Notes under the pieces: generated by a model | The model's database searches: none | The model's input: the letters and a program-made list of their open reading frames with translations, nothing else | What the model was told of the DNA's origin: nothing | In this document: positions 1,920 to 55,218 of the stretch, in pieces | Position numbering within the stretch: position 1 is the first letter of the stretch | How the letters are laid out: the number at the start of each line of letters is the position of its first letter | Source: Parcubacteria group bacterium GW2011_GWC1_36_108 | Lineage (GTDB): Bacteria; Patescibacteriota; Minisyncoccia; Moranbacterales; GWC2-37-73 | Length of the DNA: 64,000 nt | Direction of reading: 5' to 3' | Assembly: GCA_000991245.1 (NCBI GenBank) | Contig: LBRD01000007.1 | Coordinates: 37,539-101,538, forward strand | Translations under genes and position numbers: made by a program

Positions 1920-1968
1920 GCATCGGTTGTGCTATAATAGATAAGTTCATTGAAATTGTGGTATATCA

Positions 1969-2290
1969 AAGTAATTGAGTGGTTACCCTGATTTTTATTG
2001 GGGAGGAAAGTCCGGACATTTAGCTTCAATTTATTTTGGAGTAAAGGTAGCGGGTAACGCCCGTCCGCAGTGATGCGAGAGGTGCGAGCAGAGACGCTTT
2101 GATTCGAAAGAGTCGAGCACCCTTCGGGGTGAGTTCTTATAGTAATATGAGAAGTGAAACGGCCAAATCCTTACCTGAATGCAAGACCGTATTCCAATGC
2201 TTTGCATTGGTTTGTGTCGCTCGAGCTTGTCAGTAATGGCAAGCCCAGATAAATGATCACTAATACAGAATCCGGCTTATAGATTACTTT
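1969..2290 (+). ncRNA. rnpB: RNase P RNA (bacterial type A)
   Basis: 'GGAGGAAAGTCCGGAC' P4 region, 'ACAGAATCCGGCTTA' 3' conserved region, 5'/3' ends pair (aaagtaat / attacttt) as P1. Confidence 0.85.
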
Positions 2291-2330
2291 GATATGCTAT
2301 GAATTTAATGAGATAATTTTATTCAAAAAA

Positions 2331-3764
2331 ATGAAAAAACGCAGCGAATTATTTTTTAGTGCTATTCAGGTTCCAATGGATGCGGCAATGATATTGTTGG
2401 CAGCGCTAAGTGCTTTTGCAATTCGAAATATTCCTGAACTTTTGGCATTAAAACCAAAGTTGTATAACTTTCCATTGGAAAGTTATTTGAATATTATTTT
2501 AACGATAATTCCACTTGCATTATTTATTTATGCTATTGAGGGGCTTTATAATATTAAAGTTACTAGAAAATTTTGGCAGGAAGCTGTGAAGGTTTTTTCT
2601 GCCACTTCTATTGTTTTGGTTGTGATTATTGTGACCATCTTTCTTAAACGAGAATGGTTTTCGTCTCGTTTTATAATTCTTGCAGGATGGGTTTTGACTG
2701 TTGTATATGTGACAATCGGAAGATATGCTTTGCAAAAAATACAGAGATATCTTTTGGAAACAAGAGGTGTGGGTGTGCACAGACTTCTTTTGATAGGTAG
2801 AAATGGCAAGATGGATCAAATCTTAAATTTAATCAAACACAACGCAGCCCTGGGTTATAAAATTGTCGGACATATGGAAGCTGGCAGCATCAGAGCTGTG
2901 CGCGAGCTCAAAGAAAGAAGAGGTGTTGATGAAATTATTGTTTGCGACGCACTGCTTACGGATGAGGAACAAGAAAAATTAATCGATTATTGCGCAATTA
3001 ATAATATTTCATATAAATTTATTCCGACAAAATTGCAGACCGCAAAATTCGAAGCAGGAATTTTCAATGGGGAACCGATTATTGAAATCAGGCATACTCC
3101 ACTTGAGGGTTGGGGAAAAATATTAAAACGTACTTTTGATATAATCAGCTCAAGCATTTTAATTGTAATTCTTTCTCCATTGATGCTGCTGGTTTCATTG
3201 CTTATAAAATTCGAATCACTTTTTGAAAACAGAAAAGGGGCGCCTATTATTTATAAAAATGAGCGCATCGGAAGTGACGGAAAGAAATTTAATGTGTTCA
3301 AGTTTCGATATATGAAATGGGAGTTTTGCACAGACCCTAATACAAAAGAAGGAAAAAAGGCGTTGGAATATGAAAAAGAGTTAATTGAAAAATTAAGCAT
3401 CAAAAAAGGTCCGCTTTACAAAATTAAAAATGATCCTCGCAAAACAAAAGTGGGTGCATTTATTGAGAAATTTTCTATCGACGAGCTCCCGCAGTTTTTC
3501 AATGTATTGTTTGGGGATATGAGTTTGGTGGGTCCTCGTCCACATCAGGAAAGGGAAGTTGAAAAATATAATGAATATCACAGGCGCTTGCTTACCATTA
3601 AGCCGGGGGTTACAGGAATGGCTCAGGTTTCAGGGCGCAGCGACCTCGAGTTTGAAGATGAATATAAGCTTGATGTGTTTTATATTGAAAATTGGTCACT
3701 TTGGCAGGATATTCAAATTTGCCTCAAGACAGCCTTAGTTTTGTTTAAAAAAAGGAAGAATTGA
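2331..3764 (+). CDS. undecaprenyl-phosphate sugar phosphotransferase (WbaP / bacterial sugar transferase family)
   Basis: N-terminal TMs; C-terminal 'DELPQFFNVLFGDMSLVGPRPH...KPGVTGMAQVSGR' sugar-transferase domain; ATG at 2331 chosen because 2289 would overlap rnpB. Confidence 0.85.
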   Translation: MKKRSELFFSAIQVPMDAAMILLAALSAFAIRNIPELLALKPKLYNFPLESYLNIILTIIPLALFIYAIEGLYNIKVTRKFWQEAVKVFSATSIVLVVIIVTIFLKREWFSSRFIILAGWVLTVVYVTIGRYALQKIQRYLLETRGVGVHRLLLIGRNGKMDQILNLIKHNAALGYKIVGHMEAGSIRAVRELKERRGVDEIIVCDALLTDEEQEKLIDYCAINNISYKFIPTKLQTAKFEAGIFNGEPIIEIRHTPLEGWGKILKRTFDIISSSILIVILSPLMLLVSLLIKFESLFENRKGAPIIYKNERIGSDGKKFNVFKFRYMKWEFCTDPNTKEGKKALEYEKELIEKLSIKKGPLYKIKNDPRKTKVGAFIEKFSIDELPQFFNVLFGDMSLVGPRPHQEREVEKYNEYHRRLLTIKPGVTGMAQVSGRSDLEFEDEYKLDVFYIENWSLWQDIQICLKTALVLFKKRKN

Positions 3765-4253: not shown

Positions 4254-4283
4254 TAAAAACCCCGATGAAAGTCGGGGTTTTTA
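4254..4283. terminator. bidirectional intrinsic terminator (A-run, ccccga/tcgggg stem, T-run) shared by converging KH gene and folC
   Basis: stem-loop flanked by A5 and T5. Confidence 0.7.
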
Positions 4284-5780
4284 TATTTTTAAAAATGGAT
4301 AAATTGATGAAATCAAGTATAGCGATCCAGTTATTACAACTGGTTCTTTTGACGTTCTGATATTCTTAAGAATGTCAGAACGTTTGTTTTTTATGATGGA
4401 AAAGTTTTTGAAGTTTTGGGATTGCAAAAATGTTGCGATTTCTTGGTTGTCGATTGAACTCCAGTGATTGTCCATTCCTGAGGTTGAAAATTGTGTGAGC
4501 AGGATTTTGTCTGCGAGCGGGATGATATATTTCAGCATTACTTTAAAATCTTTGCCCTTTTTGAAAGCGATAACGAAAGTAAATTTTTGTGAGGGATAAA
4601 TTTTGGCAAGATTATTGCTAAGAGTTTTCATTTTTTGCGGATTGTGCGCACCATCAATAATGAGTGTTTGCCCGCCCGCAACGCTTCGCAAGTGAGCTTG
4701 CTCGCGTAGCGATGCGGGCGGGGCGCCAATCTTGCGAATTTCTAGGCGACCAGGAATTGTGATTTTTTCCAGTGCGCCTCGCAGTTTTGTTTCGTTGATT
4801 TCAATATTATCCCGCTTGGATAATATTGAAAGACAGGCAAGTGCGAGTGAGCAATTTTCGGCTTGATGAATTCCAATCAAGCCTAAATGGATATTTTTTA
4901 AAGATAGTTTTTTTTCTTTGTCATTCCGGGCTTGACCCGGAATCCAGCCGGACTTTATATCTTTAGTTATATTGCTAACTGATGATTTTAATAGGGGCTG
5001 GATTCCCGTTTTCACGGGAATGACAAGGTGAAAATCAAAAATTGTTTCTTGTGTCGTTGAAGAAATGATGGAATAATTTTTATTATTGATGATATGTAAT
5101 ACTGAATTTTTTTCTTCGCATTTATTTTTGATGACGGTTTGTGCTGCAGGCGTTTGTTGTGTGTTGATTGTTGTATTTTGGCTGTTAATTATCCCAGCTT
5201 TCTCAAGGGCGATTTCGGAAATAGTCTTTCCAAGAATTTGAGTGTGATCCAGTCCAAGTTTTGTGATGATGCAAATTTTGTTTTTGTTTGTCACGGTGTT
5301 GGTTGCATCAAGTCTTCCACCAAGCCCTGTTTCCATCACGGCGTAGTCTAGTTTTTCTTTGGCAAACATATAGAAAGCTAGCGCCACATTTATTTCAAAA
5401 AAAGTTGGCATTCCATATGAACTCTTTTCCATTTTCAAAATTGTTGGCAGGATTTGGTTGAAATATTTAAGAATCAGTTTTTCATTCGGCAGTTGATTGT
5501 TGATTTGCATTCTTTCGCGGATATCAAAAATATGTGGAGAAATTGACATTCCAACTGAAAATTCTTGGCTTTGCAGGATATGGCTGGTCAAATGGGCAGT
5601 AGAGCCTTTGCCAGAAGTCCCAGCAATGTGGATAACTTTAATTTTGTTTTGAGGATTTCCGAGCAATTTCATGAAATATTTGGCTCTTTTAAGACCAATA
5701 TCTCCCATAAACAAAGCCTCCCTCGTTGGAATGCGAGTTAGTAAAAAATCTTCAAATTGTTCCAATGTGGTAATTTTCAT
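4281..5780 (-). CDS. folC: folylpolyglutamate synthase / Mur-ligase family protein, with ~90-aa low-complexity insertion containing an in-frame repeat element
   Basis: 'IAGTSGKGST' P-loop, 'LGLDHT', 'IIDGAHNP' Mur ligase motifs; residues ~249-291 are translated repeat element. Confidence 0.75.
   Translation of the reverse strand: MKITTLEQFEDFLLTRIPTREALFMGDIGLKRAKYFMKLLGNPQNKIKVIHIAGTSGKGSTAHLTSHILQSQEFSVGMSISPHIFDIRERMQINNQLPNEKLILKYFNQILPTILKMEKSSYGMPTFFEINVALAFYMFAKEKLDYAVMETGLGGRLDATNTVTNKNKICIITKLGLDHTQILGKTISEIALEKAGIINSQNTTINTQQTPAAQTVIKNKCEEKNSVLHIINNKNYSIISSTTQETIFDFHLVIPVKTGIQPLLKSSVSNITKDIKSGWIPGQARNDKEKKLSLKNIHLGLIGIHQAENCSLALACLSILSKRDNIEINETKLRGALEKITIPGRLEIRKIGAPPASLREQAHLRSVAGGQTLIIDGAHNPQKMKTLSNNLAKIYPSQKFTFVIAFKKGKDFKVMLKYIIPLADKILLTQFSTSGMDNHWSSIDNQEIATFLQSQNFKNFSIIKNKRSDILKNIRTSKEPVVITGSLYLISSIYPFLKI
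4918..5028. repeat. MITE-like palindromic element copy A (double-hairpin ends TGTCATTCC...GGAATCCAGCC / GGCTGGATTCC...GGAATGACA), inside folC in-frame
   Basis: second copy at 29944-30043; terminal modules are inverted copies, each itself a hairpin. Confidence 0.6.
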
Positions 5781-5839: not shown

Positions 5840-5883
5840 TTGGCAAATACTATCACACTCGATAGTGTGATAGTATTTGCCAA
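5840..5883. promoter_or_regulatory. perfect 19-bp-arm palindrome (ttggcaaatactatcacac-tcgata-gtgtgatagtatttgccaa), candidate operator in folC / Zn-finger-phosphatase divergent region
   Basis: read directly; no flanking U-run on either strand so not an intrinsic terminator. Confidence 0.4.
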
Positions 5884-6024
5884 TCATTGCAAACATCTTT
5901 GTGTATTGACTTATTTTGTTTTTGGTGTTAATTTGGTTTCAATCGAAGGAAGGCTTGTTGATACGGTGTTTTGCGCGAATATCGTTCAGCATTAACCTGT
6001 CCTTTTGTTTTGCTCCAGGGTAGA

Positions 6025-6102
6025 CCCCGCCATGTAACCCGAAATCCTGGAGCGAACCGAATGGTTGCGTGAGGGAGTCGCATTTTATGCGACCATGGCG
6101 GG
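6025..6102 (+). promoter_or_regulatory. structured 5' leader (ccccgccatg ... catggcggg stem enclosing a gtcgca/tgcgac hairpin) upstream of 6143 CDS
   Basis: nested complementary segments 40 nt upstream of a GGAGG RBS. Confidence 0.3.
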
Positions 6103-6142
6103 AATTCTTTAAAAATCCAAAAAATTGGAGAAAGGAGGCATT

Positions 6143-7231
6143 ATGTTTGATGACAATCGGTATCCTGACTATGTGCAAATTGAATTTGAAAAATATTTCA
6201 AGCGCTTGCGGGAAGAACTTACTTGGAATATGGTGCTTCCAAAATATTTCCGAAAAGATCAATTAAAAAAAGCGCACGAAGCTATTTATGTGAGATGTTC
6301 ATTTCACAAGGAAAGAACCGCCTCAATGCGCTTCTCTTTTTCCAGAAATATTTTTCATTGTTATGGGTGTGGTTCCGGAGGAAGTTTGTTCTCTTTTATT
6401 TCGAAAAAGGAGGGAGGGGCTTTTGAGGCGATGCTTTTTATTAGGAAGCATTTTCAAATCCTTCTGCCATTTTCCAGAAAACAGTGGCGAGCAATAAAAA
6501 CAGAAATGGCGATGATGGAAACACTGGGATTGAATTCCGATTTTCAGGCGATTGCTCTTGATGGATGGGGGGAATCTTATGTGCTTGAAGATGAGGATTG
6601 GGAAGAAATTGAAACCGAGCGGTTAAATTTTGAGTTGTCCTGTATTGATCCCGTGGAAGCTTTTTTTGATTTGAGAGATGATTGTTTTTTTCATCCCACC
6701 ACTCAAATAAAGGAAGTAAAAAAGGTTAATGTTCAAAAAAAAGAAGAGCAAATCTTGTTGGACGTAAGTGGGTTACGCTTAGAAAAGTTTATAATTATAA
6801 GGCACGGTATGTACGGTTTTGATGATCGTTTAAATGAACGTGGTCGTCAACAGATGGAGGAATTATCAAAAAAAATAGATCCACTGCTGAAAGGTGGAAA
6901 AAGTAGTCTGTTGATTTCCTCAACTGCACCCAGAGCATTGGACAGTGCGGATGTGCTTGAAGAAAAATTGTTTTTTAAGCGGCGCGAAGACCTCGAATTA
7001 TTTTGGTCAGATAATAGCCATAATTGGGATATTACAGCTGCCATAGAAGTAATTCTTGAAAAAGGAATTGATTACGAAGTGGTAATTATTGTATCTCATC
7101 TGGAATATTGCGAATATCTCCCGTGGCGTTTTATGAAAAAAGTTTTCGGTTTAGATTCTCAAAGTTTTTCTATGAATAAAGGTGATGCATGTATGTGTAA
7201 CCTAGTAGAAAAAACTTTGATAAAGTTATAA
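6143..7231 (+). CDS. fusion protein: N-terminal CHC2 (DnaG-type) zinc finger + C-terminal histidine-phosphatase (SixA/PGAM-like) domain
   Basis: 'CSFHKERTASMRFSFSRNIFHCYGCGSGG' C-x-H-x17-C-x2-C; 'IIIRHGMYGF' RHG motif; ATG at 6143 preceded by AAAGGAGG. Confidence 0.7.
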   Translation: MFDDNRYPDYVQIEFEKYFKRLREELTWNMVLPKYFRKDQLKKAHEAIYVRCSFHKERTASMRFSFSRNIFHCYGCGSGGSLFSFISKKEGGAFEAMLFIRKHFQILLPFSRKQWRAIKTEMAMMETLGLNSDFQAIALDGWGESYVLEDEDWEEIETERLNFELSCIDPVEAFFDLRDDCFFHPTTQIKEVKKVNVQKKEEQILLDVSGLRLEKFIIIRHGMYGFDDRLNERGRQQMEELSKKIDPLLKGGKSSLLISSTAPRALDSADVLEEKLFFKRREDLELFWSDNSHNWDITAAIEVILEKGIDYEVVIIVSHLEYCEYLPWRFMKKVFGLDSQSFSMNKGDACMCNLVEKTLIKL

Positions 7232-7420
7232 AATTAGGCAGTCCTTGTATTCAAGGTCTGCCTTTTTCTTTTATTTGAGCTCTTTTTTATTTTAAAAAAC
7301 CGTGGTAAAATGATAATAGCTATAAAGTTCATAAAGTTGCAAGTTATAAAGTAAAGAGCTTGTGATTTTTGTGTTCCTACCTTATGAACTTTAAGAACTT
7401 TTAACATTACAAACTTTCAT

Positions 7421-8068
7421 ATGCGATTTGATATTATCACAATTTTTCCGAAGATTTTCGATAGCTATTTTGGCGAGTCGATTGTTAAGCGTGCTAGAGA
7501 AAAGAAAATCGTGGAAATTAACGTTCATAATTTGCGGGATTATTCAGTAAACAAGCATCATAATATTGATGACACTCCATATGGCGGAGGCGCTGGAATG
7601 GTGATGCAAGTCGAGCCGATTTATCGGGCAGTGGCTGATATTCAAAAAGCTAATTTAAAAACCAGAACGATTTTGTTTTCTGCCAAAGGAAAGCGATATA
7701 AACAAAAAGATGCAAAAAGATTATCCGAGTATGATCAGCTCATTTTTGTTTGTGGAAGATATGAAGGTGTTGATGAAAGAGTGGCTGAGTTTGTTGTTGA
7801 TGAAGAAATTTCTATTGGAGACTTTGTCCTGACTGGCGGCGAAATTCCGGCAATGCTGGTGGTGGACAGTGTCACGAGATTGCTGCCGGGAGTTTTGGGT
7901 AATGATCAAAGCGCGATTGAAGAATCACATAGCGAGGAAGGATATTTGGAATTTCCACAGTACACTAAACCGGAAAAGTTTTTAAAGTGGGAAGTGCCTA
8001 GCGTGCTGCTTAGTGGAAATCATAGTGAAATTGAAAGATGGAGAAAGGAGCATTCAGGACTCAAATAA
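7421..8068 (+). CDS. trmD: tRNA (guanine37-N1)-methyltransferase
   Basis: 'MRFDIITIFPKIF', 'DDTPYGGGAGMVM' TrmD signatures. Confidence 0.9.
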   Translation: MRFDIITIFPKIFDSYFGESIVKRAREKKIVEINVHNLRDYSVNKHHNIDDTPYGGGAGMVMQVEPIYRAVADIQKANLKTRTILFSAKGKRYKQKDAKRLSEYDQLIFVCGRYEGVDERVAEFVVDEEISIGDFVLTGGEIPAMLVVDSVTRLLPGVLGNDQSAIEESHSEEGYLEFPQYTKPEKFLKWEVPSVLLSGNHSEIERWRKEHSGLK

Positions 8069-54520: not shown

Positions 54521-55081
54521 ATGCACATATTTGTTGATGAATCTGGAATACATAAAGAAACTGGAAAATCTTCAGTTGCGTTGGTTTATGTTTTAACAGA
54601 AGATGTAAAATTTCTTAATGAAGCCATAATTAGGGCTGAAAAATCATTAAGAATAAAAAATTTTCATTGGACTGATTGTTCGTGGAAAATAAGGATTGAA
54701 TTTTTCAAGCTTATATTGAAGGAAAATTTTTCTGTAAGAGTTTCAATTATACGAAATCCTTTCAGTAAAAACGATTTTGAAGAGTCAATCAAGCTGCTGT
54801 TGTTGGAAAAGAAATTTAAAAAAGTTGTAATAGATGGCAAGAAGCCAAAATGGTATGCATTAAAAATGAAAAAGCTGTTGCGAGATTCTGGAATTTCTGT
54901 AAAAAAAATAAATATGGCCAATGACGAAGCGCATCCATGTTTGAGGTTGGCTGATGCTTATGCTGGTTTGTCTAGGGCATACTGGGAAGGGAGGGAAAAT
55001 AAGAATGTGGATAGTTTGTATGAAATAGCTCGGAAGAAAATAAAAACCACCCAACTGGTGGATGGTCAGACAGTCCAGTAG
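54521..55081 (+). CDS. DUF3800-family protein
   Basis: 'MHIFVDESGIHKE' N-terminal DESG motif characteristic of DUF3800. Confidence 0.55.
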   Translation: MHIFVDESGIHKETGKSSVALVYVLTEDVKFLNEAIIRAEKSLRIKNFHWTDCSWKIRIEFFKLILKENFSVRVSIIRNPFSKNDFEESIKLLLLEKKFKKVVIDGKKPKWYALKMKKLLRDSGISVKKINMANDEAHPCLRLADAYAGLSRAYWEGRENKNVDSLYEIARKKIKTTQLVDGQTVQ

Positions 55082-55218
55082 CTATTGCTAGCTTTCTCGC
55101 ACGGAGATTTGTCCTGGGTATCTAGTTATATTCAAAGCATAGCATAAAGACTAAAATACGTCAATAGCGCTATGCATCATTATATACGGATTATATTAGA
55201 AAAATATTTCAAAAAACA

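What the first reader, a model, noticed from the sequence alone, without database searches (positions are those of the whole stretch)
6025..7231. CHC2 zinc-finger / histidine-phosphatase fusion protein behind a structured leader
The 363-aa product joins a DnaG-primase-type CHC2 zinc finger (C-x-H-x17-C-x2-C) to a SixA/phosphoglycerate-mutase-type histidine phosphatase ('IIIRHGMYGF'). A nucleic-acid-binding zinc ribbon fused to a phosphatase is an unusual architecture. It may be a nucleic-acid-targeted phosphatase or a regulator. A nested stem-loop leader (6025-6102) precedes the strong RBS, hinting at cis-regulation.
Basis: partly seen in the sequence, partly recalled or inferred. Interest (0 to 1): 0.6.

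Follow-up and report, generated by a model that had tools for sequence, protein, structure and literature searches.

The report
Novel pseudoknot RNA leading zinc-ribbon phosphatase gene
A rare gene from a candidate-phyla-radiation bacterium joins a primase-type zinc ribbon to a small histidine phosphatase, and it is always preceded by a conserved, pseudoknotted leader RNA that matches no catalogued RNA family and probably partners with the zinc-ribbon half of the protein.

Summary
ORF 6143-7231 encodes 362 aa. Its N-terminus is a DnaG-type CHC2 zinc ribbon (Pfam E=4.5e-14; fold match to 1d0q). Its C-terminus is a SixA-like histidine phosphatase (fold match; invariant R220/H221/R264/H319), joined by a disordered linker. 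It is not a primase, because there is no TOPRIM/polymerase domain. The architecture is very rare: about 6 clusters among 1.84 billion representative proteins.

The leader is real but is an H-type pseudoknot spanning 6012-6102, not a nested stem-loop. It has three helices: P1 6012-6020/6045-6053, P2 6026-6034/6094-6102 and hairpin P4 6077-6093. A covariance model finds it upstream of every family member with DNA available (8 distinct sequences, protein identity down to 31%). It finds it nowhere else in about 1 Mb of control loci. In the 8 sequences, 97% of cells pair and 10 of 25 pairs show compensatory changes. There is no Rfam match.

The RNA is kept in a lineage where the gene encodes only the zinc-ribbon half. 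One standalone phosphatase relative was checked and lacks it. The best reading (about 0.4) is that the RNA is the cis-acting binding partner of the zinc-ribbon domain, giving autogenous control. A new riboswitch class (about 0.3) or a ribozyme/RNP is not excluded.

The parts
5906..5934 (+). Putative promoter: -35 TTGACT (5906-5911), 17-nt spacer, -10 TAATTT (5929-5934)
   Evidence: A TTGAC(T/A)-17-TAnnTT motif is found at a comparable position, 78-126 nt upstream of P1, in 7 of 8 loci. The generic scan does not list it, because its -10 matches only 3 of 6 consensus bases. The call therefore rests on positional conservation and is an inference.
5940..6011 (+). 5' domain of the leader: conserved 5' end CAAUCGAAGG, then a long-range stem (AAGGAAGG / CCUGUCCUU) closing an inner hairpin, then a U-rich 3' strand
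   Evidence: Per-locus MFE folds all give a long-range closing stem around 1-3 hairpins. The sequence is conserved among window, L001 and L004. The stem sequence differs between clades (AAGGA/UCCUU versus AAGAC/GUCUU in L063/L064). Covariation was not formally tested.
6012..6102 (+). Core pseudoknot RNA motif. P1 6012-6020 / 6045-6053. J1/2 6021-6025. P2 6026-6034 / 6094-6102. Conserved single strand AACCCGAAA 6036-6044. Conserved junction J1/4 GAACCGAAUGGUUGCGUGAGGGA 6054-6076. Hairpin P4 6077-6083 / 6087-6093, abutting the P2 3' strand.
   Evidence: Alignments A1, A3 and A6. Covariance model R1 scores 43-123 bits in all 8 distinct loci. The count of structure pairs gives 97% paired cells, 10 of 25 pairs with changes on both sides, 0 of 500 shuffles reaching the observed score, and 34-44% pairing in slid controls. 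RNAalifold independently recovers P2 and P4. No Rfam family matches.
6103..6112 (+). Conserved 3' tail AAUUCUUUAA. UUCUUU (6105-6110) is complementary to AAAGGA of the SD region.
   Evidence: The tail is conserved in 6 of 8 loci and is replaced by GCACAUUNAA in L005/L006. Local folds pair it with the SD region in window, L001, L004, L065 and L064, but not in L005, L006 or L063. It is therefore only a possible expression platform.
6132..6138 (+). Shine-Dalgarno AAGGAGG, 5 nt before the ATG
   Evidence: Read directly from the sequence. It is conserved in the homologous loci.
6143..7231 (+). ORF of 362 aa. Zinc-ribbon domain aa 9-104 (nt 6167-6454). Family-specific HFxIPLPFxxxxW helix, aa 104 to about 135. 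Disordered acidic linker aa 128-204. SixA-like histidine phosphatase aa 205-362 (nt 6755-7228).
   Evidence: Translation. Pfam and NCBIfam scans. AlphaFold2 model with confident domains and a linker at pLDDT <50. Foldseek against PDB. Family alignments. PDB profile search.
7236..7273 (+). Intrinsic terminator: AGGCAGTCCTTG-TATT-CAAGGTCTGCCT followed by TTTTTCTTTT
   Evidence: The terminator scan reports the inner stem at 7243-7256. The outer pairs were read from the sequence. Together with the promoter, this makes the unit monocistronic.

Best explanation
The locus is a self-contained two-part module transcribed as one mRNA running from the promoter near 5906 to the terminator near 7273. A ~200-nt structured 5' UTR has as its conserved core a 91-nt H-type pseudoknot (6012-6102). 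Behind it lies the gene for a zinc-ribbon/histidine-phosphatase protein.

The most likely mechanism is that the pseudoknot is the cis-acting RNA partner of the protein's own DnaG-type zinc-ribbon domain. When the protein is in excess, the zinc ribbon binds its own leader and lowers (or otherwise tunes) translation or stability of the message. This would be autogenous control of the kind used by T4 gene 32 protein and by ribosomal proteins S15 and S4, which also recognise leader pseudoknots.

The phosphatase half is a catalytically intact SixA-like enzyme. The zinc ribbon would tether it to a nucleic-acid target that the leader may mimic.

Shown here: the RNA fold, its covariation, its strict linkage to the gene family, the two protein folds and the intact catalytic residues. 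Inferred: the protein-RNA binding, its regulatory sign, and the phosphatase substrate.
For: (1) Strict linkage. R1 finds the motif 25-45 nt upstream of the SD of all 8 distinct family loci whose DNA could be fetched. Flanking genes differ among these loci and protein identity falls to 31%. There is no credible hit in about 110 other loci (roughly 1 Mb) carrying DnaG or phage-primase zinc ribbons, and no other hit in the 64-kb window.

(2) The RNA follows the zinc-ribbon half, not the phosphatase. In L065/L066 (two samples, syntenic with the window) the gene encodes only the N-terminal domain: 173 aa, Zn ligands and the IPLPF motif intact. No phosphatase remnant is present in the locus, yet the RNA scores 93.9 bits. 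Conversely, the one standalone phosphatase relative whose locus could be fetched (P0154, L067) has no such RNA.

(3) The N-domain is a bona fide nucleic-acid-binding fold.

(4) The RNA is more conserved than the protein. It has invariant unpaired nucleotides in J1/4 and in the AAYCC strand, as expected for a specific recognition surface.

(5) G-U wobbles occur only when the + strand is read, and no terminator lies between the motif and the ORF. The element therefore acts as sense RNA on the mRNA.
Against: Nothing here tests protein-RNA binding directly. DnaG zinc ribbons are known (general knowledge) to read single-stranded DNA trinucleotides, not folded RNA. The motif ends 30-40 nt before the SD, and no SD-occluding structure is conserved in all loci, so how binding would change expression is unclear. 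The N-only argument rests on one lineage. A more distant N-only relative (L010) has no detectable motif. Only 8 distinct sequences are available.
Confidence: 0.4

Rival explanations
1. The pseudoknot is the aptamer of a new riboswitch class. It would sense a small phosphorylated metabolite or nucleotide derivative that the downstream phosphatase acts on, and switch translation of the gene.
For: The motif is about 91 nt, pseudoknotted, and carries highly conserved junction nucleotides with covarying stems in a 5' UTR ahead of an enzyme gene. RNAalifold proposes a mutually exclusive alternative pairing of the P1 3' strand with the J1/4 GGG region, which is the kind of competition a switch needs. 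A UUCUUU tail complementary to the SD region is present in 6 of 8 loci and pairs with it in several local folds.
Against: The motif is tied to a single rare gene family, whereas riboswitches usually control several gene types. It is retained where the phosphatase domain is absent. It is absent from the one standalone phosphatase relative checked. No terminator or SD-sequestering platform is conserved in all loci. The alternative helix shows almost no covariation.
Confidence: 0.3
2. The RNA is a functional RNA in its own right. It could be a self-cleaving ribozyme processing the 5' UTR, or a stable RNA cofactor/scaffold that forms an RNP with the zinc-ribbon protein and directs the phosphatase. 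In that case it is not primarily a regulator.
For: The strand order P1-P2-(optional hairpin)-P1'-P4-P2' is the same as in HDV-like ribozymes. L063 and L064 carry a 29-42-nt hairpin insertion exactly at the P3 position. The whole UTR is about 200 nt with a conserved 5' terminus. The 1:1 linkage of RNA and nucleic-acid-binding protein recalls RNA-protein pairs such as HEARO/IscB (general knowledge).
Against: No Rfam ribozyme model matches, even at E<=10. There is no J4/2 strand that could carry a catalytic C, because P4 abuts P2' directly. The conserved CC lies 3' of the inserted hairpin, not in its loop. No terminator separates the RNA from the ORF. Cleavage and RNP formation cannot be tested with these tools.
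Confidence: 0.15
3. The stems are fortuitous, or reflect only recent common ancestry of the intergenic DNA. The protein would then be a degraded primase fragment fused by chance, with no special function.
For: Only 8 distinct sequences exist, and three of them (window, L001, L004) are close relatives. The shuffle controls in the count of structure pairs can be exceeded by relatedness alone, as the tool documentation notes.
Against: Compensatory changes occur between clades whose proteins are only 31-40% identical and whose flanking DNA is unalignable. Slid controls, which preserve relatedness, fall to 34-44% pairing. Both protein domains keep every catalytic or ligand residue. The architecture recurs in different genomic contexts.
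Confidence: 0.03

Closest known systems
Zinc-binding domain of bacterial DnaG primase (Pfam PF01807; PDB 1d0q, 2au3)
   Same: The CHC2 ligand spacing, the preceding helices and the fold are the same. Support: Pfam 52.5 bits, profile E=6.9e-15, TMt 0.75, 31% identity.
   Different: There is no TOPRIM/RNA-polymerase domain and no DnaB-binding domain: TIGR01391 scores 49.6 bits against a cutoff of 283.6. A family-specific HFxIPLPFxxxxW helix follows the ribbon. The domain is fused to a phosphatase.
SixA-type small histidine phosphatases (PDB 1ujb, 2rfl, 3f2i alr0221; histidine phosphatase superfamily branch 1)
   Same: It is a ~150-aa minimal fold with RH(G/A), a second Arg and a second His, all invariant. 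Foldseek probability is 1.0 and TMt is 0.60-0.70.
   Different: Sequence scores fall below the Pfam and TIGR00249 cutoffs. The substrate is unknown. It belongs to a large uncharacterised clade of ~150-aa standalone proteins that the family profile recovers at E 1e-35 to 1e-23. The one such relative with a source name comes from a Woesearchaeota (DPANN) archaeon.
Histidine-phosphatase fusions to nucleic-acid or nucleotide enzymes: bifunctional RNase H/acid phosphatase (NCBIfam NF005567, Rv2228c type) and mycobacterial MutT1 (Nudix + histidine phosphatase, PDB 5gg5-5gg9)
   Same: These are precedents for a branch-1 histidine phosphatase tethered to a domain that handles primers, hybrids or nucleotides. 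The MutT1 C-terminal domain is among the fold hits. NF005567 gives weak hits to the standalone relatives.
   Different: The partner domain here is a non-catalytic zinc ribbon. None of those proteins is known (general knowledge) to carry a dedicated leader RNA.
Autoregulatory leader pseudoknots bound by their own gene product (T4 gene 32 mRNA; E. coli rpsO/S15 and alpha-operon/S4 leaders). Comparison from general knowledge.
   Same: A pseudoknot in the 5' UTR of the gene for a nucleic-acid-binding protein (a zinc-containing one in the case of gp32), with strict gene-RNA linkage.
   Different: There is no sequence or model similarity. The motif here lies further from the SD. Binding is untested.
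H-type pseudoknot riboswitches with an inserted hairpin (preQ1-II, SAM-II/V), and HDV-like ribozymes. Comparison from general knowledge plus Rfam searches.
   Same: Two interleaved helices of 9-11 bp with a hairpin in the third loop. The strand order is as in HDV-like ribozymes.
   Different: No Rfam hit. The motif lacks the J4/2 strand that carries the catalytic C in HDV-like ribozymes, and lacks an L3/P1.1 layout. The SD is not part of the pseudoknot.

Membership tests
CHC2 DnaG-type zinc ribbon (PF01807) | Profile match above the curated cutoff | tested here: met
   52.5 bits against 24.9, aa 39-103. PDB profile hit to 1d0q at E=6.9e-15.
CHC2 DnaG-type zinc ribbon (PF01807) | Four zinc ligands C-x2-H-x17-C-x2-C | tested here: met
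   C52, H55, C73 and C76 are invariant in 11 sequences.
CHC2 DnaG-type zinc ribbon (PF01807) | Zinc-ribbon fold | tested here: met
   AlphaFold2 N-domain pLDDT 69-89. Foldseek to 1d0q_A gives TMt 0.75 and rmsd 2.1 A.
DnaG primase (TIGR01391) | TOPRIM/RNA-polymerase catalytic domain and full-length profile score | tested here: not met
   49.6 bits against a cutoff of 283.6, covering only profile positions 25-104. No Toprim family hit. The public name 'primase protein' is not justified.
Histidine phosphatase superfamily, branch 1 (PF00300) | Profile match above the curated cutoff | tested here: inconclusive
   15.4 bits against 21.7 for this protein. Standalone proteins recovered by the family profile at E 1e-35 score 27.5-28 bits, which passes.
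Histidine phosphatase superfamily, branch 1 (PF00300) | Catalytic core: RHG-type Arg-His, second Arg, second His | tested here: met
   R220, H221, R264 and H319 are invariant in all full-length members.
Histidine phosphatase superfamily, branch 1 (PF00300) | Alpha/beta phosphoglycerate-mutase-like fold | tested here: met
   C-domain pLDDT mostly 80-92. Foldseek probability 1.0 to 3f2i, 2rfl, 1ujb (TMt 0.70), PGAM5 and the MutT1 C-terminal domain.
SixA phosphohistidine phosphatase (TIGR00249 equivalog) | Equivalog score; activity on phospho-His HPt/NPr proteins | tested here: not met
   There is no TIGR00249 hit for the window C-domain. The relatives score 20-24 bits against a cutoff of 74.5. 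Activity is not testable here.
Any Rfam 15 RNA family | Covariance-model match | tested here: not met
   No hit overlaps 6012-6102 at gathering score or at E<=10. There are no hits at E<=0.1 in six homologous loci.
HDV-like self-cleaving ribozyme | Nested double pseudoknot with P3/L3-P1.1 and a J4/2 strand carrying the catalytic C | tested here: not met
   The P1/P2 interleaving and the P4 position match. However, P4 abuts P2' with no J4/2, the conserved CC lies outside the optional hairpin, and the Rfam HDV models do not hit.
Riboswitch | Conserved structured aptamer with covariation | tested here: met
   97% of cells paired and 10 compensatory pairs.
Riboswitch | Expression platform coupled to the aptamer | tested here: inconclusive
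   No terminator is present. The anti-SD-like tail is found in only 6 of 8 loci. The alternative helix has little covariation.
Riboswitch | Specific small-molecule binding | not testable with these tools
   Needs in-line probing or ITC.
Autogenous protein-binding leader | Strict co-occurrence of the RNA with the gene for the binding protein | tested here: met
   Present in 8 of 8 family loci, including the N-domain-only variant. Absent from about 110 control loci.
Autogenous protein-binding leader | Direct binding of the product to its leader and a resulting change in expression | not testable with these tools
   Needs EMSA and reporter assays.

The most novel reading that the evidence does not exclude
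The pseudoknot RNA and the zinc-ribbon protein form a previously unknown dedicated RNA-protein system of candidate-phyla-radiation bacteria. Either it is a new riboswitch or ribozyme class, or it is an RNP in which a structured RNA recruits or guides a histidine phosphatase. In either case a primase zinc ribbon would have been repurposed from reading single-stranded DNA to recognising a folded RNA.
Probability: 0.3. Interest if true: 0.8.

Novelty: new variant of a known kind. Interest (0 to 1): 0.62.

Why it matters
Three points make this worth following up.

- **A new structured RNA family.** Strong comparative support was obtained from only eight sequences, in a bacterial group (Patescibacteria/CPR) whose regulation is almost unexplored. 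The motif is absent from Rfam 15.
- **A defined protein partner.** The RNA is tied to a single, very rare protein that couples a primase-type nucleic-acid reader to a phosphatase. If the zinc ribbon binds the RNA, the known repertoire of this domain extends from ssDNA template recognition to structured RNA. It would also give a concrete handle on what a large clade of uncharacterised small SixA-like phosphatases does.
- **A simple test system.** If the RNA instead binds a metabolite or cleaves itself, it would be a new riboswitch or ribozyme class. Either way the module is small (a ~200-nt RNA plus a 362-aa protein) and directly testable in vitro.

The work also corrects the public annotations, which read 'primase protein' and 'phosphoglycerate mutase // nucleotidyltransferase'.

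Tried and rejected
- **Rfam.** Searches at gathering score and at E<=10 on the window leader, and at E<=0.1 on six homologous loci, found nothing relevant. The only hits were hairpin-like miRNA models on the 5840-5883 palindrome.
- **HDV-like ribozyme.** The strand order matches, but the J4/2 strand and the L3/P1.1 layout are missing.
- **Attenuator or terminator between motif and ORF.** None was found.
- **Conserved SD-sequestering hairpin.** Present in some loci only.
- **Extended P1.** The 19-nt imperfect inverted repeat 6001-6019 / 6046-6064 is not conserved outside the window clade.
- **Mini-hairpin ACC-GAAU-GGU in J1/4.** Not conserved in L005, L006 or L065.
- **Mini-ORF from the invariant AUG in the P2 3' strand.** It reads MAGIL* in the window, but the stop is lost in 2 of 8 loci, so the conservation is probably at the RNA level.
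- **Metagenome pattern scan.** It returned only two further copies of the L001 type.
- **GTDB genome scan.** The only full-length relative found was L009, which is the L001 contig.
- **IMG/VR scans by protein and by RNA pattern.** They returned only ordinary phage-primase ribbons and chance pattern matches, with no R1 hit.
- **The 176-aa ORF downstream of the N-only gene in L065/L066.** It was tested as a displaced phosphatase and is unrelated, with no Pfam or NCBIfam hit.
- **The gene next to the standalone phosphatase in L067.** It was tested as a split-off zinc ribbon and is unrelated.
- **Literature.** Three full-text searches found no paper on this architecture or motif.
- **AFDB fold search.** The library was unavailable.
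Full report
**What is at the coordinates.** The window is from a Candidatus Moranbacteria genome (Parcubacteria/CPR). The product is 100% identical to P0001, 'primase protein [Candidatus Moranbacteria bacterium GW2011_GWC2_37_73]'. The ORF runs from ATG 6143 to the stop at 7229-7231 and encodes 362 aa. AAGGAGG (6132-6138) precedes it. The gene lies between a divergent FolC/Mur-ligase-like gene (4281-5780, minus strand) and trmD (7421-8068), inside a cell-wall/division cluster containing ftsI, ftsW, murG and murC. A strong hairpin plus T-run follows the stop (7236-7273).

**The protein.** Pfam gives Zn_ribbon_DnaG at E=4.5e-14 (52.5 bits, aa 39-103). It gives only a sub-threshold His_Phos_1 hit (15.4 bits against 21.7). 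NCBIfam's dnaG model matches only positions 25-104 (49.6 bits against 283.6), so this is not a primase.

An AlphaFold2 model built on the six-member family alignment has two confident domains, aa 9-127 and aa 205-362. A linker at aa 128-204 has pLDDT <50 and is variable in length and partly deleted in homologues. Foldseek against the PDB matches the C-domain to small histidine phosphatases: alr0221 3f2i, SixA 2rfl/1ujb (TMt up to 0.70), PGAM5 and the MutT1 C-terminal domain, all at probability 1.0. It matches the N-domain to the DnaG zinc-binding domain 1d0q (TMt 0.75, rmsd 2.1 A, 31% identity). A profile search of PDB sequences agrees: 1d0q at 6.9e-15, 2au3 at 2e-9 and a PGM-family protein 3eoz at 1e-4.

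The zinc ligands C52/H55/C73/C76 are invariant. So are the phosphatase residues R220, H221 (RHG/RHA), R264 and H319. Both halves therefore look functional. A family-specific motif, HFxIPLPF(S/T)(R/K)xxW, follows the ribbon.

**Rarity.** A word-indexed search of 5.8 billion proteins found only six proteins with this architecture, at 37-100% identity. A full HMMER scan of 1.84 billion representatives added one more full-length cluster (P0008) and a few N-domain-only proteins. The C-domain, by contrast, has many standalone ~150-aa relatives at E 1e-35 to 1e-23, some of which pass the Pfam His_Phos_1 cutoff. None of them reaches the SixA equivalog cutoff. Among 185,579 GTDB species representatives, only one locus has the full architecture (L009, which is the L001 contig). 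IMG/VR holds only ordinary phage-primase ribbons.

**The leader RNA.** Every locus has a 300-470-nt gap upstream of the gene. Aligning five of these gaps showed that the segment 6012-6102 is conserved even where the proteins are under 40% identical and the rest of the spacer is unalignable.
- P1 (6012-6020 GCUCCAGGG with 6045-6053 UCCUGGAGC) encloses in its loop the 5' strand of P2.
- P2 (6026-6034 CCCGCCAUG) pairs with 6094-6102 (CAUGGCGGG), which makes an H-type pseudoknot.
- Hairpin P4 (6077-6093) abuts the P2 3' strand.
- Two unpaired stretches are highly conserved: AAYCCNNAR (6036-6044) and J1/4, GA-N-CGANU-N5-CGU-NN-GGG (6054-6076).

A covariance model from five sequences (R1) found the motif upstream of all further family loci obtained afterwards: L063, L064 and L065/L066, at 43-94 bits. 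It found it nowhere else in the window. Among roughly 110 control loci carrying other CHC2 ribbons it gave only noise (21.5 and 15.5 bits).

On the eight distinct sequences, 97% of cells form standard pairs. Ten of 25 pairs show changes on both sides: 4 in P1, 3 in P2 and 3 in P4. No shuffle out of 500 reaches the observed score. Sliding the partners by 1-3 columns drops pairing to 34-44%. RNAalifold independently recovers P2 and P4. G-U pairs appear only when the + strand is read, so the element works as sense RNA.

L063 and L064 carry a 29-42-nt hairpin inserted between the P2 5' strand and the AAUCC segment. This shows where the fold tolerates expansion. Rfam 15 has no matching family, and three literature searches found nothing.

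**The wider UTR.** A TTGAC(T/A)-17-TAnnTT promoter-like motif sits 78-126 nt upstream of P1 in seven of eight loci (window 5906-5934). It falls below the generic scan's -10 rule, so the call rests on positional conservation. The predicted transcript starts with a conserved (C/U)AAUCGA(A/C)GG. It then folds into a long-range stem closing one to three hairpins, with a U-rich 3' strand just before P1. No terminator lies between the motif and the ORF. The unit is thus one mRNA with a ~200-nt structured leader.

After P2, a tail (AAUUCUUUAA) is conserved in six of eight loci. It can pair with the SD region in several of them, but not in L005, L006 or L063. No universal expression platform was identified.

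**Which half of the protein does the RNA go with?** In L065/L066 the gene encodes only the N-domain. These are two independent samples, one a 121-kb contig, and both are syntenic with the window. The ORF is 173 aa with ligands and IPLPF motif intact. tblastn finds no phosphatase remnant, and the next ORF is unrelated. The RNA is nevertheless fully retained at 93.9 bits. Conversely, the only standalone phosphatase relative that could be traced to DNA (P0154, a Woesearchaeota archaeon) has no such RNA and no ribbon gene next to it. L064 has the full architecture with a frameshift between the domains. The RNA therefore tracks the zinc-ribbon domain. That inference rests on one N-only lineage.

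**Mechanism.** I commit, at about 0.4, to the RNA being the cis-acting binding partner of the zinc-ribbon domain. This would be autogenous control, as for T4 gp32 or ribosomal proteins S15 and S4 (analogy from general knowledge). The phosphatase would then be an effector tethered to a nucleic-acid target that the leader may mimic.

A new riboswitch class comes next, at about 0.3. Supporting it are the conserved junctions, a possible alternative pairing of the P1 3' strand with the J1/4 GGG, and the partial anti-SD tail. Against it are the single-gene association and the retention of the RNA without the phosphatase.

A ribozyme or stable RNP cofactor stands at about 0.15. The strand order matches HDV-like ribozymes, but the J4/2 strand and the L3/P1.1 layout are absent. 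Chance or mere shared ancestry is about 0.03 and is contradicted by the compensatory changes across distant clades.

**Comparison and novelty.** Each protein domain belongs to a known superfamily. The membership tests are met for the zinc ribbon and, on fold and catalytic residues, for the histidine phosphatase superfamily. They are not met for DnaG primase or for the SixA equivalog. The combination is new and very rare. The nearest precedents for a histidine phosphatase fused to nucleic-acid or nucleotide machinery are the RNase H/acid-phosphatase proteins and MutT1. The RNA is a new family. Its general kind, a structured 5' leader with an H-type pseudoknot, is known. I therefore rate the finding a new variant of a known kind, with interest 0.62. 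It is a compact, experimentally tractable RNA-protein module from an under-studied phylum, but it is known from only eight sequences and its function is unresolved.

Noticed in passing
window 5840-5883: A perfect 20+20-nt palindrome (TTGGCAAATACTATCACACT cgat AGTGTGATAGTATTTGCCAA) lies in the divergent intergenic region, about 25 nt upstream of the -35 of the leader promoter. It is present with a few changes in L001 and was not seen in the other loci. It could be an operator for a dimeric regulator. It caused spurious miRNA-model hits in Rfam.
   Followed up: partly
window 6095-6112: The invariant CAUG in the P2 3' strand can be read as a start codon. It opens a mini-ORF: MAGIL* in window and L065, MTGIL* in L004, MVGNAH* in L005 and MTRRFF* in L063. 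An SD-like GGG sits just 5' of hairpin P4. In L006 (and apparently in P0004) this reading frame runs into the main ORF, which explains their annotated N-terminal extensions. In L064 there is no early stop. It is probably RNA-level conservation, but a regulatory uORF is not excluded.
   Followed up: partly
window 5940-5949 and 6058-6062: The conserved 5' end of the predicted transcript (AAUCG) is complementary to the conserved CGAUU of J1/4. All 5 of 5 positions pair in L004, L065 and L064 (AAUCA/UGAUU, a compensatory change). The count is 4 of 5 in window, L001, L063 and L005, and 3 of 5 in L006. This is a possible long-range contact tying the 5' domain to the pseudoknot core, but the evidence is weak.
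   Followed up: partly
L065 5553-6083 and L066 2691-3221: In the lineage where the gene encodes only the zinc-ribbon half, an unrelated 176-aa ORF (MQIYKGTTRVVFVFKRYVVKIPRF...) occupies the place of the phosphatase. It has no Pfam or NCBIfam hit. It might be an alternative effector.
   Followed up: partly
window 1967-2295: Bacterial RNase P RNA class A (130 bits), with several reduced helices as is typical of CPR genomes. The mechanical ORF 2289-3764 (sugar transferase) overlaps its 3' end, so the real start of that ORF is probably later.
   Followed up: no
window 55064-55129 (- strand): DUF3800-II RNA motif (RF02961), 68.4 bits against a gathering score of 43.2. It is an orphan structured RNA of unknown function.
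   Followed up: no
L064 508-1498: In this Logan contig the family gene is split by a frameshift between the N-domain and C-domain, while the leader RNA is intact. It is either an assembly error or a pseudogene.
   Followed up: no
L010 2758-3315: A more distant Patescibacteria protein consists only of the zinc ribbon plus a KFKIPSPF version of the family-specific motif. It has no detectable R1 motif upstream. This suggests the RNA arose within, or diverged beyond recognition outside, a narrow clade.
   Followed up: no
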